DNA of 19,632 nucleotides from a virus, in UHGV virus genome UHGV-1566927, one strand, 5' to 3'. A program made the position numbers. Of the stretch, positions 3,001-9,000 are shown piece after piece (the first letter of the stretch is position 1; every line of letters starts with the position of its first letter).

Positions 3001-6000
3001 ATCGTCAATTATTTACATAATAAGCAAGAAACCTGGAGCATTAAAAACTTTAATGTCTCTATTCGGACCACTAATTAGTGCTGCATTGATATTCTTGCCA
3101 ACCGTTTTATTTGAAAACACAGTAATGATGCCTAGAATATTTATGTCATTTGGTGCTTGCATTGCAATATTATCACTGACAAATGTCAATGCAATGGCAT
3201 GCAAGACTTCGGCTATACTTTCATGCATATTACTTTCGACAGTAGTAATGACAGCCTCAGCTCATGTGAGTTCTGTAAAATACATTTATGGATACATGAA
3301 CAGGGTTCTTACGTCGATTGACTACAACGCAAGAATTGACAATCAGAAGTCTTCGTTAATAAAAATTAAATTCCTTAACAGGGTCAGATATCCAGGAGAA
3401 GCTCTTACAAATTCAAATGCATTCCCTATAGTAGGCAAAATTAATAAGATTAATTTTGCATGGGAGTGGTCTATGGGAGTTTACATGAATTATTTTAATT
3501 ACAACTTTAAAATTGTGTCGAATGCAAAAACAGACGGAAAAACATTTGTAACCGAGGAGCGAGTTTATAGAATGTATAAAAAGGATGATGTTTACCTAAT
3601 AGAGTTTAAGTAAACACATAGCTATATGATTTATAGGTGATATAAATGAGCCACAAATACATTTCGAATATAATCTTTAAGATATTTGCTCTTGCAATAA
3701 TTTTAATCGCAGTTTATGCATCATGGTATCCAGTATTTCATCATGCCGCATGGGCTGGTCACGATTACCTAGTTCATATGAACAGAGCGTTATCCACTAT
3801 TGACTCATTGGGTAACGGTCAGTTCCCACCATTGTATGATATTAACTATAAATTCCATCCGGGATACTCCAATAATTTATTTTACCCACCCATTGCAAAC
3901 GTCATAACGTCTGCTGCGTTATTTTTTACCAGTAACTTCAATCTCACGGTAAAATTCATTGCCATTCTGTCCATGTTGCTTTCGACGCTAACAACATACT
4001 TTGTGTTAATGCAATTTAGAAGAGACAAATTATCCTCGATAATCTATGCCGTGTGCTTTTCTTCATCAATTTACATGATTGATAATATATTCATAAGGAC
4101 CTCATACCCTGAAGCATTTGCCATTTGTGCAATACCATTGTTTGTATATGGTCTATATGCAGACACAAAGAAAAACCAGTTATTTTTTTTAGTAACTGCA
4201 AATACAATCTTGATACTTACAAATATACCAGCGACATTATGTTCTGGTGTTATTTTTGTAATTTACTGGTTCATAAAAAGAGATAATTTATTCGTTTACT
4301 GCGTGAGCGCAGTGGTGTCCATTCTCATATCCATGTGGTATGTTGCTCCTTTGCTATACTCAATACACGGAGAGTCATTTACCATTATTGACAGGAATTG
4401 GTTCCCGGTTATGGTTAGCAAGGCAATATCATTGTATGATTTAATTTCTGGAGAAAAGATTAAATCAGGTACATTATCTGGAATGGCCTTGGGTATTGGG
4501 TGGCCAATTTTTATTGCTTTTTTATATACCATCTTCAAACAAAATAATGAAGACAGTAACAAAGGCATGATATACATAATGCTTGTTATAACGTTTATCA
4601 TTTGCTCTGGATTTAATTACACAATTTTACCAGACGTATTCAACCCCCTTTCCAAGATACAGTTTTCATGGCGTTTCACGCCATATCTATTATTTTTTAT
4701 AATTTTATACATTTATAAAAGTAACAAGCTGAACATCAACTACTCACTTGCAATACTTTTGGCGACAAGCCTGATGACCACGGCTATCACCATACCTAAA
4801 AGTAGCAGTAAAAATATTATTTCGTCAGAAATCCATGATGTAAGTTTTAAAGATTATGTTTTGAAAGGCGCAAAAGAACTTAAGTCTAACAAGTCAGTAT
4901 TGGATTGTAACATTGGCAATCTCAAAATCACACTTCCATATAGCGTATCGATAAATGATTCAGGCATGCCCACATACACTATTAACGCTGTAGACAACGC
5001 TACGTGCCAAATCCCCTTCATGGCGTATAAATCTTTGCAATTAATCGGCGTCAAGGAATACCATAGGGATGGTTACTTTTTAGCCGTATTAGAAAAAGGA
5101 ATAAACGTAGTAAATATTGTAAGGAATAAAACATTCAACATTATATTATTTACTTCATTTCTAACCTCTTTAATATCAATAATATTGTTCACTTCCTTCA
5201 TTAAGCGAAAGTAAGCTAAGACGTTACGCCAGTAAATCCCAAGGCGTAACGTCCAATTCAAATCCCTGATATTATCATTAAAATAATTGCTATATAGTCC
5301 ACGGCCAACACACCATTATCATCTGATTTTATCACCCCCATCTGTTTTGCATCTAAACCAGCTAATTTAAATGCATTTTCTATTTCCTGTGCGATAAAAC
5401 CCACATGCTCTTCACCTGGATGTGATTTTAATTGGTACTTAACAATCATCTTCTTTAGAATTGATGACAGTTCGATTTCTCCCGAACTTAATGGCTTGAT
5501 AGCATCCTTTAATGAAGCATCAGATGTAATTATAGGGTTAGCCTGTAAGTAAATTTCCTTGTATGGATTTGCACTTGTTCCCAACGTGACAGCGCCAGAT
5601 GTTGTTGGGTATATATAACCATCCCCAACTGTTACTGAAAATCCGCCCGGTGAAATTATTGCTCCTGTAGTAATGGAGTTCGTCCAGATGGGTAGAGTCA
5701 CAATAGAATATGTTGATGATGACAACGTGTATTGAACCCTATATAGTCTATACTGGTTCGCAACAGAAAAAACCTCTAACACAAAATATCCATTATTAAG
5801 GTTTTTCAACTCGTACCACTGAATAGCTGTATTAGGAACACCACTAAACGTTAACTGAGGCTCAATTTCAGCATACCATGCAAATTTTCTTATATTAAAA
5901 AGGACCATATACCTAAGCAGGTCATTAACACTCTGAAATATAGTCCTTTTCAATGGATCACTATATCTTCCATCAGAGTAACGTATTGGATTCTCAAGGT

Positions 6001-9000
6001 TCAACTGATTTGGCGGCGAGTAAGTAGATGTATATTTTGAAAAATCCTCACCCACATAAGAGAATTCTTTAAATATAAAAAGGTTTGGTAAAGCTCTGTC
6101 GCTAATATCTCCTAATACAATACTATACACATTACCACTACTATCTTGTGCAACACCTTCGTTTTCTGTCCTTTTTGAACTAACTCCTAACTTTGAGAAA
6201 TAATCTATATATGCAGTGTTCTTAACCACTGTTGATGATATTACGTCACCAACCATGGAAATCTCCACAACACCAATGTCAGTGAAATTATTCAGTGGTT
6301 CATATGTCCATGATTCATCTTCATGGTACACCCCACCAAAGGATAAAAAAATTGTATTTCTACAACTAATAGAAACACCCTGCAATTTCCATGTTAATTT
6401 ATAATAATCTGCAACATTGACACCTGATATCGTTGGAGTTACAAATCCTGTCATTGCCCTTGATAGTGGTATGGATGCATGAATTTCACCAGTTGACATC
6501 CTCCTTAAAACCAAAAGAGAATCGTCATTATATGCACCTATTTTTGGCTGCGCACTAAACCCACAAAAATAATCATTCCTTACTGCGAATATTGTTGTAA
6601 AGTTCGAAACAATAGTATTCTGATAATTTGAAATAAATGTGCCAGCAGTGGGCAATTCTGGAATTTCATAATATGACAGAATGCCATTATTACCACGCAC
6701 TTTATCATAAATTTTCAATTGTGGAAGACTTCCTTCAACTGATATTGACTGTGTTCCCCCGTCATGGATATAGAACCATGTAATTTGCGCACCACTTTTA
6801 TCATATACAGAAACTGCTCTTTTAGTTGGGGCATCTAAATCAGACACATGGTTAATAAAAACATAGTCATCATCAGATATATCAAAACCTTGAGGCATAA
6901 GATATGTTCCACCAATTTCTGCCAATGCCTCATCATATCCATCAAAAAATGTAGACAACTTGAATTCACATTTTTTGACAATGCGAGCATTGCTGACCGT
7001 AGAGTCTAGTTTCTGGTAAACATTCCCATCGCGATATCCCACCTCCTTCGAACCATTTGGCATTGAGATTTCATTTCTTAATGATGCGTCGCCAACCCCA
7101 ACCCACGCGCCCACACCAACCCCGCCTGTTGACTGAGGCGTAGATCCCGCTGGTACATTTTTTGGGAACGAACCATCCCAACGATAATATTCTCCATCTC
7201 CGTCAGGAAGTGACCACCTTAGAGCCTGATTTGGCAGGGTAATTGAAGCACCAGATTGAAATGAGTCAATAAGGATCCAGCCCATCTGCCCAAGAGACTG
7301 CTTGTATTTATTCTCCATACCGTACCAGGTCAGTCGAGGTACGCCGAATCTGTCATTCCAGGATTCTTTTTCTCTATCATTAGATAGGTGATCGAAGTTT
7401 TGTGCATTATCGTACAAATCTTTTGCAGCAGCAGACCCCAGCGGATTGCGGGTGTTGTAAGTCGTCATATGGGCCTCATAAACGAAAACCCACCGAAGTG
7501 GGTTTGTTAAGATGTTTTTGTGATTAAGCTACATTGCCGGGGTAGGAGGCATTGTCGTATTGATAGAAGGAGTCGCGGTATTCTTTTGCTGTAACCTGAC
7601 ATGTTCCGTCAGACTGCGGTGATATCTCTGAGATTAGTGCGCTGTAACCAACACGCGAAGATTCGCAGAATATAAGACGTGGAGGTTCTATCGATTGATC
7701 ATTCAGTATGATGCCAATGAACTCATCCTGTTCAGATACCGATAATTCATAATCACTAATCTTAGTAACTGGAAGCAAACCAGACGCTGAGCCATCCTGA
7801 TAACGAATTAACGCGCGCGGATTGCTGAATGTCCAGTCGAGTGGTTCTGATACGGTGATAGTTGTTTTACCACCGTCAGTTCTCATATCTTCAATCAGCG
7901 TGCTGATTGTTTTGCTACCTGGAATATCATCAGTAAAAATAATTCTGTCGCCTACGTTATAGCAAAGCGCATCCATTTCAGTGGTCGTGGTATGAGTTAA
8001 ACGCTGCTGCCTGTACTTCATCAGACGTCGCATGCCTATCTGATAAGCTCTGTCCTGATCAAGCACGCCATCAAGCGTATAATCTTCAACTTTAACTGGC
8101 GTAGGATTACCCGATGTTCTGCATTGAACAGTCTCTTCAGCCCACGTAGTACCATTAATGTAAGTGACATCCACGCCATCATAATCATCGGCAGATGGTG
8201 CAACGAAAGCCGTTTGAAGCGCTTCTGTCATTTCCTGAGGACTAATGATTCCCGTCCACGTTTTTATCCCCTCCCTTCCAACAGAAGCCATGCCGTCAGA
8301 CAGCAGGAAATAGCTTTTACCTGCGTTAGTGACTTTCTGTAGCATTTCAAGAGCGGAAACTGAGTCTGTTGTTGCGTAATCGAAAAACTCGCTATCAGGC
8401 GTCCAGTAAGACGATTCCAGCATATCAATCGCTTCATGATCCATCGCAAGCCCCAACTCATTTCCAATGTGGTACAGCGCACCTGAAATGCTCCTGGAAA
8501 TACCGGTATCATAAATGCGTGTGGCGACTACGTTGACACGGCGGTCGGACTGAGCGGCAAGCTTTCCACCAGTTTCGACTGATACAGCCATAGTGGTTAC
8601 ACCAGTGTATGATGATGGTCTTGAAAGCAATCTCCCCCTCAATGACTGCCAGTACATGTTATCCCTGCTGTTATCCTGGCCTTGTTCGTTCGTTCTCCTG
8701 CATCTAACCTCCACCAAACCGGCCGATGCCAGCGTGATACGTTCGGTAAAACCTAACCCATTAATATTTTGCTGATTGTAAGACCCTGTTTTGCTTGTCC
8801 AGCCTGAACCAGAACCGTAAACACGGTACTGAATTTCCCACTGAACAATCCTGTTCTGCTTCTTGCCTTTCTTGTTATATCCGCAAATGCCGTTAGGGAA
8901 GAAGAAGTTGACCTCAAACATATCAACGACTTCATTATCCGGACATGTAAGAAACGGCCCCATCCATTTATTGTTCTGATTTAAACCGTTTGCTTCGAAA

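What the first reader, a model, noticed from the sequence alone, without database searches (positions are those of the whole stretch)
5258..7468. Tail fiber with C-terminal chaperone-like motif directly adjacent to the O-antigen modification operon
The receptor-binding protein ends with an HVGFIAQEIE-containing segment reminiscent of self-cleaving intramolecular chaperone domains, and its gene converges on the gtr operon across a shared perfect hairpin terminator. This suggests the fiber recognises the O-antigen that the adjacent gtr genes modify.
Basis: partly seen in the sequence, partly recalled or inferred. Interest (0 to 1): 0.35.

Follow-up and report, generated by a model that had tools for sequence, protein, structure and literature searches.

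The report
Prophage tailspike beside O-antigen glucosylation genes
This is a prophage receptor-binding tailspike with a self-cleaving folding domain at its end, sitting tail-to-tail with genes that add glucose to the host's surface sugar coat: a well-known arrangement, here with an unusual propeller-shaped binding domain and an extra sugar-adding gene.

Summary
The 736-aa ORF (5258-7468, minus) is a modular tailspike:

- **Anchor (1-135):** like Sf11 gp13 and CBA120 TSP N-termini.
- **Receptor-binding part (about 161-595):** a predicted five-bladed beta-propeller plus beta-sandwich. Its closest structural relatives are staphylococcal phage receptor-binding proteins.
- **C-terminus (649-736):** a Peptidase_S74 intramolecular chaperone domain. 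Its Ser649/Lys654 pair aligns with the catalytic dyad of K1F endosialidase and T5 pb1.

An 11-bp perfect hairpin (5220-5253) lies in the 43-bp gap to the convergent gene cluster. It has a 12-nt loop and no clean U-tract.

The immediate neighbour is ORF522, which no family library recognises. It is 50% identical to Shigella flexneri GtrIc, so the operon reads gtrA-gtrB-gtrC-gtrIc-like.

The link to O-antigen is plausible but circumstantial:

- All four temperate contexts of this tailspike family have a convergent gtr or acyltransferase gene next to the tailspike.
- GtrC type co-varies with the binding-domain type.
- The low-GC cassette spans gtrC through tailspike residue about 136.
- P22 and BTP1 are functional precedents.

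Receptor identity, enzymatic activity and cleavage are all untested. Verdict: a new member of a known kind, of modest interest.

The parts
5258..7468 (-). Tailspike / receptor-binding protein gene, 736 aa (81.6 kDa precursor)
   Evidence: ORF list and translation. Pfam Tail_spike_N plus Peptidase_S74. PHROG tail fibre and tail spike families.
7064..7468 (-). N-terminal virion-anchor domain, residues 1-135 (backbone-type GC, 47.7%)
   Evidence: Pfam PF18668, residues 89-127, E = 1.1e-18. phmmer against PDB 9occ_G (Shigella siphophage Sf11 tailspike gp13), residues 1-156, E = 1.8e-32, and against CBA120 TSP1/3/4. Homology to same-backbone E. coli prophages ends at window 7083-7314.
6059..6988 (-). 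Predicted five-bladed beta-propeller, residues about 161-470, with family-invariant K361, Q363, E435, E437 (R433 80%)
   Evidence: AlphaFold2 model mc30f19720c25: pLDDT 79.6, pTM 0.78, about 20 strands in five groups of four. Foldseek: phi11 Gp45 5efv E = 4e-12; Staphylococcus phage vB_SscM-1 tail fibre E = 3e-28, TM 0.69, rmsd 3.5 A. Conservation over 75 homologues.
5684..6058 (-). Helical linker plus beta-sandwich domain, residues about 471-595 (tower-like)
   Evidence: Model secondary structure: helices 488-492 and 514-523, strands 528-592. The alignments to the phi11, 80alpha and NF5 receptor-binding proteins span about 470 columns, so they extend beyond the propeller.
5525..5683 (-). Pre-chaperone stalk, residues 596-648, presumed trimeric beta-helix
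   Evidence: Low pLDDT in the monomer models. Aligns with the segment preceding the chaperone domain in 6eu4, 7y5s, 4uw8 and 3gw6. The fold assignment is an inference.
5261..5524 (-). Peptidase_S74 intramolecular chaperone domain, residues 649-736 (9.5 kDa). Predicted nucleophile S649 (codon 5522-5524), K654 (codon 5507-5509), HVGFIAQEIE at 5378-5407
   Evidence: Pfam PF13884, E = 9.9e-9. Dyad alignment to 3gw6 and 4uw8. SDxxxK conserved in the homologues. Masses computed.
5220..5253 (.). 11-bp perfect inverted repeat with a 12-nt loop, between the convergent stop codons. Candidate bidirectional terminator or 3'-end stabiliser
   Evidence: The homologous position in L001 holds a canonical A-tract / 14-bp stem / T-tract bidirectional terminator that shares the core TTACGCC...GGCGTAA.
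3646..5214 (+). ORF522: GtrIc-family membrane glucosyltransferase candidate, and the gene that actually abuts the tailspike
   Evidence: No hit in Pfam, NCBIfam or PHROGs. 49.9% identical over 513 aa to the S. flexneri protein P0197. P0197's gene lies after gtrA-gtrB, next to the yejO-type autotransporter gene, and is bracketed exactly by the published gtrIC primers (PMC4924310). Absent from the otherwise collinear L001.
2186..3613 (+). gtrC (GtrII-type serotype-specific glucosyltransferase), 475 aa
   Evidence: Pfam PF14264, E = 1.2e-17. PHROG 4829 'GtrC-like O-antigen conversion translocase', E = 2.4e-33. 77% aa identity to the L001 gtrC.
1266..2186 (+). gtrB (bactoprenol glucosyltransferase, GT2), 306 aa
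   Evidence: Pfam PF00535, E = 1e-32. 91.7% identical to the gtrB of the S. flexneri gtrIC cluster.
907..1269 (+). gtrA (flippase-like small membrane protein), 120 aa
   Evidence: Pfam PF04138, E = 5.7e-14. 96.7% identical to the gtrA of the S. flexneri gtrIC cluster.
7524..10241 (-). TipJ-family central tail tip protein, immediately upstream of the tailspike gene
   Evidence: Pfam FNIII-A_GpJ and Phage-tail_3. PHROG 469, E = 6.6e-271. RefSeq annotation of homologues as 'host specificity factor TipJ family'.

Best explanation
The gene encodes the trimeric side tailspike (receptor-binding protein) of a siphovirus-type prophage of an Escherichia/Shigella-like host. The prophage is integrated at a tRNA-Ser gene.

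How the protein is built:
- Residues 1-135 are a conserved anchor that fixes the trimer to the tail tip.
- Residues about 161-595 are the specificity module: a five-bladed beta-propeller followed by a beta-sandwich. Family-invariant polar residues (Q193, K361, Q363, R433, E435, E437) lie on the first strands of blades 1, 4 and 5. If, as in typical propellers, those are the inner strands, the residues would line a central pocket that binds, and possibly cuts, a surface saccharide.
- Residues 596-648 form a short trimeric stalk.
- Residues 649-736 are a Peptidase_S74 intramolecular chaperone. It nucleates trimer folding and then removes itself by Ser649/Lys654 autoproteolysis, converting the 81.6-kDa precursor into a 72-kDa mature spike and a 9.5-kDa fragment.

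How it relates to its neighbours: the gene ends tail-to-tail, across a stable hairpin, with gtrA-gtrB-gtrC-gtrIc-like. That operon is expressed from the prophage and glucosylates the O-antigen, possibly in two steps. The most likely logic is the P22/BTP1 one: the spike recognises the unmodified O-antigen, and the lysogen's modification blocks recognition or cleavage. This would exclude superinfecting siblings and protect the lysogen's own LPS.

Shown here: the domain architecture, the dyad conservation, the hairpin, the synteny and the mosaic cassette. Inferred: autoproteolysis, trimer state, pocket function, O-antigen as the receptor, and terminator function.
For: - Domains: Tail_spike_N and Peptidase_S74; dyad aligned to endoNF and T5 pb1; dyad mechanism as described in PMC3742443.
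- Anchor: residues 1-156 match Sf11 gp13 (9occ_G) at E = 1.8e-32. Sf11 gp13 is a virion-attached, O-antigen-dependent tailspike of a siphophage (PMC12724387).
- Propeller: model pLDDT 79.6, pTM 0.78. Foldseek top hits are phi11 Gp45, the 80alpha RBP and the NF5 RBP at 4e-12 to 6e-11, against 6e-7 or worse for generic propellers. BFVD gives the Staphylococcus phage vB_SscM-1 tail fibre at E = 3e-28, TM 0.69. tblastn gives a weak sequence link to the same staphylococcal proteins, and PHROG 22693 also matches.
- Invariant residues across 75 homologues fall on the first strands of blades 1, 4 and 5.
- Synteny with convergent gtr or acyltransferase genes in 4 of 4 temperate contexts.
- GtrC co-varies with the binding domain.
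- Same-backbone E. coli prophages swap both gtrC and the distal tailspike between conserved flanks.
- GC is 33-36% from gtrC to tailspike residue 136, against 46-48% for the backbone.
- Functional precedent for a convergent gtr/tailspike pair: PMC4413052.
Against: - No enzymatic family was detected in the central domain by Pfam, NCBIfam or a profile search of PDB sequences.
- The closest structural relatives bind teichoic-acid GlcNAc and are not known to be enzymes (PMC4901313).
- The receptor could be a capsule or another glycan.
- gtr clusters commonly sit at prophage ends whatever the tailspike is, so adjacency alone is weak evidence.
- The co-variation rests on one positive pair (window and L001) plus contrasts.
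- The same binding module occurs in virulent phages that have no gtr genes.
- The hairpin lacks a U-tract and has a 12-nt loop.
- The stalk region is low-confidence in the monomer models.
- The docking partner is unidentified: the protein encoded next to the tape measure is only 157 aa, unlike the 457-aa adaptor-bearing distal tail protein of Sf11 (PMC12724387).
Confidence: 0.6

Rival explanations
1. Positional coincidence. The tailspike targets a receptor unrelated to the sugar modified by the gtr genes (capsule, ECA, LPS core or a protein). The gtr operon is simply a set of accessory genes lodged where such genes accumulate, between the last tail gene and the attachment site.
For: - The cluster lies at the prophage end, next to the tRNA-Ser att remnant and a UmuD-like accessory gene.
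- gtr operons are described as highly mobile among phage types (PMC2629481).
- The binding module also occurs in virulent phages without gtr genes.
- The nearest structural relatives bind a non-O-antigen glycan.
Against: - A convergent O-antigen modification gene is present in all four temperate contexts of this tailspike family, across different backbones and integration sites.
- The near-identical binding domain travels with the same GtrC type, while other distal domains on the same backbone carry unrelated GtrCs.
- gtrC, ORF522 and the distal tailspike share one low-GC cassette.
Confidence: 0.25
2. The central propeller is a true depolymerase (glycosidase, lyase or esterase), not only a lectin. 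The invariant E435/E437, with K361, Q363 and R433, would form an active site that cleaves or deacylates O-antigen. Glucosylation would then protect the lysogen's LPS from its own spike, as in BTP1.
For: - K361, Q363, E435 and E437 are 99-100% conserved over 75 diverse homologues; R433, E468, D475 and R496 are 80-89% conserved.
- Five- and six-bladed propellers include endosialidases and neuraminidases, which appear among the weaker fold hits.
- BTP1 is a precedent for self-protection.
Against: - No match to any enzyme family by sequence.
- The best fold matches are binding proteins with no known catalysis.
- In staphylococcal myoviruses the homologous region lies in a gene annotated as a glycerophosphodiester phosphodiesterase. 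Whether a separate catalytic domain accompanies the propeller there was not checked.
Confidence: 0.35
3. The C-terminal S74-like segment is a degenerate remnant, or a non-cleaving trimerisation tag that stays on the mature fibre.
For: - The domain is short: 88 aa, against about 150 aa in endoNF.
- The Pfam match is moderate (35.8 bits).
- The domain is only 62% identical to that of P0001, while the mature part is 96-98% identical.
- One homologue, P0095, lacks the domain altogether.
Against: - The Ser/Lys dyad with i/i+5 spacing is intact and conserved in every homologue carrying the domain.
- The conserved H-x-G-x-IAQE core and the C-terminal hydrophobic helix are present.
- Faster divergence is what one expects of a segment that is discarded from the virion.
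Confidence: 0.12
4. The hairpin is not a transcription terminator. It would instead be a recombination or insertion scar, or an RNA 3'-end stabiliser left where the gtrIc-like gene was inserted.
For: - Homology to L001 resumes inside the hairpin, at window 5237.
- The L001 hairpin has A and T tracts that the window has lost.
- The 12-nt loop and the missing U-tract fail the consensus.
Against: - The stem core is retained, and the flanking AAAA/TTTT of L001 is replaced by GACG/CGTC, which keeps pairing. That suggests selection for the structure.
- The stability is far above shuffled controls.
Confidence: 0.3

Closest known systems
Intramolecular chaperone (Peptidase_S74) domains of K1F endosialidase, T5 L-shaped tail fibre pb1 and the GA-1 neck appendage
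   Same: - C-terminal position.
- Pfam PF13884 match.
- Ser/Lys dyad with i/i+5 spacing, aligned to the mutated Ser and the Lys of 3gw6 and 4uw8.
- Conserved HxGxIAQE core and terminal hydrophobic helix.
- The GA-1 neck appendage is also a fold-level hit for the central domain.
   Different: - Only 88 aa long.
- It follows a propeller-plus-sandwich module of the staphylococcal-phage type rather than a sialidase or a T5-type fibre.
- Cleavage has not been tested.
Salmonella prophage BTP1 and phage P22: tailspike gene convergent with the gtr operon
   Same: - The tailspike is the last tail gene and is convergently transcribed with a gtr operon at the prophage end.
- In those phages the gtr modification blocks the spike's action on O-antigen (PMC4413052).
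   Different: - Those spikes are beta-helix endorhamnosidases on podoviruses with a P22-type head-binding domain and no S74 domain. Here the spike is a propeller with an S74 domain on a siphovirus-type tail.
- The operon here carries two type-specific transferases.
- Functional coupling is not shown here.
Shigella siphophage Sf11 tailspike gp13 (PDB 9OCC) and CBA120 TSP N-terminal domains (Tail_spike_N)
   Same: - Residues 1-156 align with gp13 residues 1-156 (E = 1.8e-32).
- Both are siphovirus side tailspikes encoded directly after the hub/TipJ gene.
   Different: - The distal domain of gp13 is an Sf6/P22-like beta-helix.
- The Sf11 distal tail protein is 457 aa and carries an adaptor helix; no such protein is evident here, where the protein next to the tape measure is 157 aa.
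Staphylococcus phage receptor-binding proteins (phi11 Gp45, 80alpha RBP, P68 tail fibre, vB_SscM-1 tail fibre)
   Same: - Five-bladed propeller followed by all-beta domains.
- Foldseek E = 4e-12 (PDB) and 3e-28 with TM 0.69 (BFVD).
- Weak but detectable sequence similarity, 22-25% identity.
   Different: - Those proteins have coiled-coil stems, no Tail_spike_N and, as far as checked, no S74 domain.
- They bind wall teichoic acid GlcNAc of Gram-positive hosts.
Shigella flexneri serotype 1c gtrIC cluster (gtrA-gtrB-gtrIc)
   Same: ORF522 is 50% identical to GtrIc. The window's GtrA and GtrB are 96.7% and 91.7% identical to those of that cluster.
   Different: - In S. flexneri, GtrIc is the only type-specific gene in its cluster. 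It adds the second glucose to a glucose placed by GtrI, which is encoded in another prophage (PMC4924310).
- Here a GtrII-type gtrC and the GtrIc-like gene are in tandem in one operon, in an apparently intact tail-gene context.

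Membership tests
Peptidase_S74 intramolecular chaperone domain | Match to the PF13884 profile above the gathering score | tested here: met
   35.8 bits against a cut-off of 22, E = 9.9e-9, residues 649-703.
Peptidase_S74 intramolecular chaperone domain | Catalytic Ser and Lys five residues apart at the start of the domain | tested here: met
   S649 and K654. They align to the S-to-A position and the Lys in 3gw6 and 4uw8, and to SDARxK in 6eu4 and 7y5s. The pair is conserved in 7 of 7 homologues carrying the domain. Dyad role as described in PMC3742443.
Peptidase_S74 intramolecular chaperone domain | Located at the extreme C-terminus, after a trimeric beta-helical stalk | tested here: inconclusive
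   The C-terminal position is met. The 596-648 segment aligns with the pre-chaperone stalk of solved proteins but has pLDDT below 50 in the monomer models. No multimer prediction was available.
Peptidase_S74 intramolecular chaperone domain | Trimerisation-dependent autoproteolytic release of the domain | not testable with these tools
   Needs expression and SDS-PAGE or mass spectrometry. Predicted products are 72.2 and 9.5 kDa.
Tail_spike_N (TSP1/Gp66, Sf11 gp13-type anchor) | Profile and sequence match of the N-terminal domain | tested here: met
   PF18668, E = 1.1e-18. 9occ_G residues 1-156, E = 1.8e-32; also 5w6h, 4oj5 and 6nw9.
Tail_spike_N (TSP1/Gp66, Sf11 gp13-type anchor) | Docking partner on the tail (in Sf11, an adaptor helix on a long distal tail protein) | tested here: inconclusive
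   No long distal tail protein is present. The ORFs between the tape measure and TipJ are 157, 164 and 126 aa. The partner was not identified.
phi11 Gp45-type receptor-binding protein (propeller platform plus tower) | Five-bladed propeller followed by all-beta C-terminal domain(s) | tested here: met
   Model pLDDT 79.6. Foldseek 5efv E = 4e-12, 6v8i, 9m7x. BFVD A0A1X9I9T3 E = 3e-28, TM 0.69.
phi11 Gp45-type receptor-binding protein (propeller platform plus tower) | N-terminal triple coiled-coil stem, and binding of teichoic-acid GlcNAc | tested here: not met
   The N-terminus is a Tail_spike_N anchor instead. The host is Gram-negative. Ligand binding is not testable here.
P22/Sf6-type beta-helix endoglycosidase tailspike | Right-handed parallel beta-helix catalytic domain | tested here: not met
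   No PF09251, PF12708 or PF13229 match. The predicted fold is a propeller.
gtr O-antigen glucosylation operon | gtrA (PF04138), gtrB (GT2) and a downstream type-specific polytopic transferase, all in one direction | tested here: met
   PF04138, PF00535 and PF14264 hits, with overlapping or abutting ORFs at 907-3613. PHROG 4829.
GtrIc family (for ORF522) | Homology to the experimentally defined S. flexneri GtrIc, and a position after gtrA-gtrB | tested here: met
   49.9% identity over 513 aa to P0197. P0197's gene is bracketed by the published gtrIC primers and lies next to yejO (PMC4924310). Residues F31, H32 and N99 match the published numbering. Activity and acceptor are not testable here.
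Rho-independent (intrinsic) terminator | GC-rich stem, short loop (3-8 nt), and a U-run immediately 3' of the stem | tested here: not met
   The stem is met (11 bp, 7 of them G-C). The loop is 12 nt. There is no U-run on the plus strand and only UUAGCUUACUUU on the minus strand. The consensus scan does not list it.

The most novel reading that the evidence does not exclude
The cassette would be a self-contained two-step serotype converter paired with a new class of O-antigen spike. GtrC would add a first glucose and the GtrIc-like ORF522 a second, giving a kojibiose-type branch as in S. flexneri 1c, but from a single prophage operon. The staphylococcal-type five-bladed propeller, with its invariant K/Q/R/ExE residues, would be a previously uncharacterised O-antigen-binding or O-antigen-cleaving module whose action is blocked by that modification. 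Insertion of the gtrIc-like gene, which the L001-type phage with a 97%-identical binding domain lacks, would be an escalation between sibling phages competing for one receptor. This prophage lineage would then be related to the lost donor of the S. flexneri gtrIC cluster.
Probability: 0.2. Interest if true: 0.55.

Novelty: new member of a known kind. Interest (0 to 1): 0.32.

Why it matters
Confirming it mainly adds one more example.

Three details are more useful:

1. The receptor-binding module is a rare family: 75 clusters at E <= 1e-3 among 1.84 billion representatives. No close match (>= 80% coverage) turned up in 5,426 complete E. coli genomes or among 50,697 deposited phage records, and a pattern scan of species-representative genomes found no relative; one 35%-identical relative does occur in an E. 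coli draft assembly. Its nearest structural kin are staphylococcal phage receptor-binding proteins. That makes it a candidate for a new O-antigen recognition chemistry and for engineering of receptor-binding proteins.
2. The neighbouring ORF522 gives a family assignment (GtrIc-like) to a protein that current libraries leave blank. It also suggests that a di-glucosyl branch can be written by one operon.
3. The gtrA and gtrB genes are 92-97% identical in protein sequence to those of the S. flexneri 1c gtrIC cluster, whose phage origin is unresolved.

Tried and rejected
- NCBIfam gave nothing for the tailspike, gtrC or ORF522.
- Pfam at E <= 10 gave nothing for the central domain or ORF522.
- A 17-sequence profile of the central domain against PDB sequences gave only a chance 70-aa hit.
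- Alignment A1 was too divergent for a locus search. Host genus was inferred from backbone and flank matches to E. coli.
- ARAGORN found no whole tRNA. The 1-102 match is the host flank plus a 3' tRNA-Ser fragment.
- megablast of the tailspike region against complete E. coli genomes matched only the N-terminal anchor and the TipJ junction.
- tblastn of GtrC against deposited phages found no Shigella serotype-converting phage relative, only a 25% hit in a Hafnia phage. I therefore could not equate it with GtrI.
- I considered that ORF522 might be a Wzy-type polymerase or an acyltransferase. I rejected this in favour of the GtrIc family because of the 50% identity and the position in the gtrC slot.
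- The published GtrIc residue numbers V381, P382 and V495 are offset by 2 in P0197. The identity was settled by the primer matches instead.
- Model coordinates are not exposed. The placement of invariant residues in a central pocket therefore rests on strand order, not on 3D distances.

Full report
**1. Setting**

The window is one end of a siphovirus-type prophage. On the minus strand it carries:
- a portal gene (17995-19347) and head-tail genes;
- a tail tube gene;
- a tape measure gene (11580-14105);
- three small tail-tip genes;
- a TipJ-family gene (7524-10241);
- the ORF under study (5258-7468).

On the plus strand, converging on that ORF, lie gtrA (907-1269), gtrB (1266-2186), gtrC (2186-3613) and a 522-aa membrane ORF (3646-5214). 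A UmuD/HumD-like gene (231-602, minus) follows towards the window start.

Bases 1-102 are 99-100% identical to the tRNA-Ser (serU) region recorded in several E. coli phage entries. They occur in 5,423 of 5,426 complete E. coli genomes. Bases about 41-102 read as the 3' part of a tRNA-Ser on the minus strand, and ARAGORN finds no whole tRNA. This looks like the att-side junction.

The tail backbone occurs at 85-92% nucleotide identity in a handful of E. coli chromosomes. The host is therefore Escherichia/Shigella-like. The exact source genome was not found.

**2. The observation**

The ORF, the motif and the hairpin are all real.

- Pfam gives Tail_spike_N (residues 89-127, E = 1.1e-18) and Peptidase_S74 'chaperone of endosialidase' (residues 649-703, E = 9.9e-9, 35.8 bits against a cut-off of 22).
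- The S74 match starts at S649-DASL-K654.
- Alignments to solved chaperone-containing proteins put S649 on the Ser-to-Ala position and K654 on the Lys of endoNF (3gw6: TANGERK) and T5 pb1 (4uw8: TADARLK). They also match the SDARxK of 6eu4 and 7y5s.
- All seven full-length homologues that carry the domain keep SDxxxK.
- The Ser/Lys dyad, five residues apart, is the established catalytic pair of this domain. It becomes competent only after trimer folding (PMC3742443).
- Predicted products are 72.2 kDa (residues 1-648) and 9.5 kDa (residues 649-736).

The hairpin (5220-5230 / 5243-5253) is 11 bp, perfect, with a 12-nt loop. It occupies most of the 43-bp gap between the two stop codons. It is far more stable than shuffled sequence (z = -6.3 and -4.1). 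It fails the intrinsic-terminator consensus because the loop is too long and there is no U-run on the plus strand.

At the same place in the closest relative (L001) there is a canonical bidirectional terminator: an A-tract, a 14-bp stem and a T-tract. It shares the core TTACGCC...GGCGTAA. In the window the A and T tracts are replaced by GACG/CGTC, which still pair. The structure looks selected, but its function as a terminator is an inference.

**3. What the protein is**

*Anchor.* Residues 1-156 align with residues 1-156 of Sf11 gp13 (9occ_G, E = 1.8e-32) and with the CBA120 TSP N-terminal domains. Sf11 gp13 is the tailspike of a Shigella siphophage. Its N-terminal helices dock on the tail tip, and the phage uses O-antigen as its receptor (PMC12724387). 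Hundreds of database proteins share this anchor fused to quite different distal domains: pectate-lyase-like and other beta-helices, SGNH esterases, P22-type, phosphodiester glycosidase. This is the classic modular tailspike pattern.

*Central region.* The central 500 residues match no Pfam, NCBIfam or PDB sequence family.
- An exhaustive HMMER search of 1.84 billion representatives found only 75 relatives at E <= 1e-3, and 9 at E <= 1e-30.
- With a 17-sequence alignment, AlphaFold2 gave a confident model of residues 161-594: pLDDT 79.6, pTM 0.78.
- The model shows about 20 strands in five groups of four, then two helices and a beta-sandwich.
- Foldseek against the PDB ranks the S. aureus phage phi11 Gp45, 80alpha and NF5 receptor-binding proteins first (4e-12 to 6e-11). 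Generic propellers follow at 6e-7 or worse. The first, weaker model gave the same order.
- Against predicted viral structures the best hit is the Staphylococcus phage vB_SscM-1 tail fibre (E = 3e-28, TM 0.69, rmsd 3.5 A over 444 columns). The GA-1 neck appendage, itself a known chaperone-domain protein, ranks third.
- tblastn against 50,697 phage records finds only these staphylococcal proteins, at 22-25% identity. PHROGs shows the same link.
- phi11 Gp45 is a five-bladed propeller 'platform' plus 'tower', with a central cavity proposed to hold GlcNAc (PMC4901313).

*Conserved residues.* Across 75 homologues K361, Q363, E435 and E437 are 99-100% conserved. R433, E468, D475 and R496 are 80-89% conserved, and P192 and Q193 about 80%. 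By strand order these fall on the first strands of blades 1, 4 and 5, which in typical propellers are the inner strands. I therefore infer a central ligand pocket. Whether it only binds or also cleaves is open.

**4. Mosaic structure**

GC content is as follows.

| Segment | GC % |
|---|---|
| gtrA | 42.4 |
| gtrB | 39.0 |
| gtrC | 33.5 |
| ORF522 | 34.2 |
| Tailspike residues 136-648 | 36.4 |
| Tailspike chaperone domain | 35.2 |
| Tailspike residues 1-135 | 47.7 |
| TipJ | 46.2 |
| Remaining backbone (10242-19632) | 48.2 |

- Same-backbone E. coli prophages (L009, L010) are homologous up to window 7083-7314 and again through gtrA-gtrB. In between they carry other transferases (a DUF6056 protein, or a different GtrII-type) and other distal tailspike domains.
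- Conversely, P0001, the closest tailspike (84% overall), sits in a different prophage. That prophage has other tail genes and is integrated near yedK-ompW-trp. Even so, window 5237-7198 is 92% identical to it at the nucleotide level, and window 512-3613 is 77% identical.
- Per-region protein identity to P0001 is shown below. The discarded chaperone domain evolves, or recombines, separately from the mature spike.

| Tailspike residues | Identity to P0001 (%) |
|---|---|
| 1-60 | 30 |
| 61-135 | 73 |
| 136-595 | 96-98 |
| 596-648 | 91 |
| 649-736 | 62 |

- Near-identical copies of the whole window arrangement (98.7-99.3%) occur in two other sequencing samples.

**5. Is the spike linked to the O-antigen genes?**

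*Evidence for a link.*
- Every temperate context found for this tailspike family has a convergent O-antigen modification gene immediately downstream.
  - Window and L011: the GtrIc-like gene, then gtrC-gtrB-gtrA.
  - L001-L004: gtrC-gtrB-gtrA.
  - L005 (69% identical): an Acyl_transf_3 gene.
  - L007 (E. coli, 35% identical): an Acyl_transf_3 gene plus gtrC-gtrB-gtrA.
- The phage with the 97%-identical binding domain has the same GtrC type (77% aa). L007, L009 and L010 have unrelated GtrCs.
- For BTP1 the convergent gtr/tailspike pair is functionally coupled. For P22, gtr glucosylation blocks the spike's endorhamnosidase (PMC4413052).

*Evidence against, or limits.*
- The same binding-plus-chaperone module, at 42-43% identity, is used by two apparently virulent phages without gtr genes: a siphophage with DNA polymerase A, and an SU10-like podophage.
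- gtr operons are mobile accessory genes that gather at prophage ends (PMC2629481).
- The co-variation rests on few independent cases.

I put the O-antigen coupling at roughly 0.55-0.6.

**6. The neighbour, ORF522**

- ORF522 has no hit in any family library. It belongs to a 13-cluster family.
- A member from S. flexneri (P0197, 179 sequences) lies directly after gtrA-gtrB, flanked by IS elements and next to the yejO-type autotransporter gene.
- Both published gtrIC primers match exactly on either side of that gene (PMC4924310 Table 2). P0197 is therefore GtrIc.
- ORF522 is 49.9% identical to it over 513 aa. The window's GtrA and GtrB are 96.7% and 91.7% identical to those of the gtrIC cluster.
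- GtrIc adds the second glucose of the kojibiosyl branch onto the glucose placed by GtrI (PMC4924310).
- The window thus has two type-specific transferases in tandem. ORF522 is precisely the segment missing from L001.
- A second genome (L017) carries the same two families in tandem in the opposite order. Its GtrIc-like gene is 50% identical to ORF522, and its GtrII-type gene is 33% identical to the window GtrC, the closest relative outside L001.
- Elsewhere the GtrIc-like gene stands alone (L013, L018, L019).
- Two-step glucosylation from one operon is an attractive but untested reading.

**7. Comparison and verdict**

The finding is a genuine tailspike with a genuine S74 chaperone domain. It sits in the known 'tailspike convergent with O-antigen modification genes' arrangement.

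- It works like an endosialidase-type spike in maturation.
- It works like an Sf11 or CBA120 spike in attachment.
- It resembles a phi11-type receptor-binding protein in its binding module.
- It is not a member of the P22-type beta-helix family.
- The hairpin is not a consensus intrinsic terminator.

Novelty: a new member of a known kind. The uncharacterised propeller module and the double-transferase operon are the parts worth following up. Interest is about 0.3.

Noticed in passing
window 3646-5214 (+); L013 3187-4755; L017 6001-9023: ORF522 is recognised by no family library, but it is a GtrIc-family protein, 50% identical to the S. flexneri serotype-1c enzyme (identity of that enzyme confirmed by exact matches to the published primers). 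It makes the operon gtrA-gtrB-gtrC-gtrIc-like. The same two transferase families occur in tandem, in the reverse order, in L017. This raises the possibility of a two-step (Glc-Glc) modification from one operon.
   Followed up: partly
window 907-2186 (+) vs L013 1905-3190: The window's GtrA and GtrB are 96.7% and 91.7% identical in protein sequence to those of the S. flexneri 1c gtrIC cluster. That is closer than to any other gtr cluster examined. This prophage lineage may be related to the unidentified donor of that cluster.
   Followed up: partly
window 7486-7505 (-): A terminator-like hairpin lies between the TipJ stop (7524) and the tailspike start (7468): AAACCCAC-UUCG-GUGGGUUU followed by UCGUUUAU. 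It suggests attenuation or separate control of tailspike expression. The energy z-score is only -1.7.
   Followed up: partly
window 1-102: This stretch is the host flank plus a 3' fragment of tRNA-Ser (serU) on the minus strand. It is 99-100% identical to E. coli and is present in 5,423 of 5,426 complete genomes. It marks the prophage/host junction, and ARAGORN calls no complete tRNA.
   Followed up: partly
window 231-602 (-) and upstream to about 791: A UmuD/HumD-like (S24 peptidase) gene sits between the att junction and gtrA. The matches to the curated models cover only the N-terminal part of the protein. In related E. coli prophages the equivalent region is annotated as split or frameshifted.
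   Followed up: no
window 5261-5524 vs 5525-7063 (tailspike residues 649-736 vs 136-648): Compared with the closest homologue P0001, the released chaperone domain is only 62% identical while the mature binding part is 96-98% identical. The discarded domain diverges or recombines independently. One distant homologue (P0095) lacks the domain altogether.
   Followed up: partly
L015 8001-10214; L016 5420-7714: The same propeller-plus-chaperone module (42-43% identity), with different N-terminal anchors, is carried by a siphophage with its own DNA polymerase A and by an SU10-like podophage. Neither has gtr genes nearby. This is module exchange between temperate and apparently virulent phages.
   Followed up: partly
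window 780-906: Only one GATC site (848-851) lies upstream of gtrA, so the paired Dam/OxyR sites typical of phase-variable gtr operons are not obvious. No proper OxyR-site analysis was done.
   Followed up: no
window 10238-11580 (-): The ORFs between the tape measure and TipJ are short (157, 164 and 126 aa). No long adaptor-bearing distal tail protein like Sf11 gp17 is present, so the docking site for the Sf11-gp13-like N-terminus of the tailspike is unexplained.
   Followed up: no
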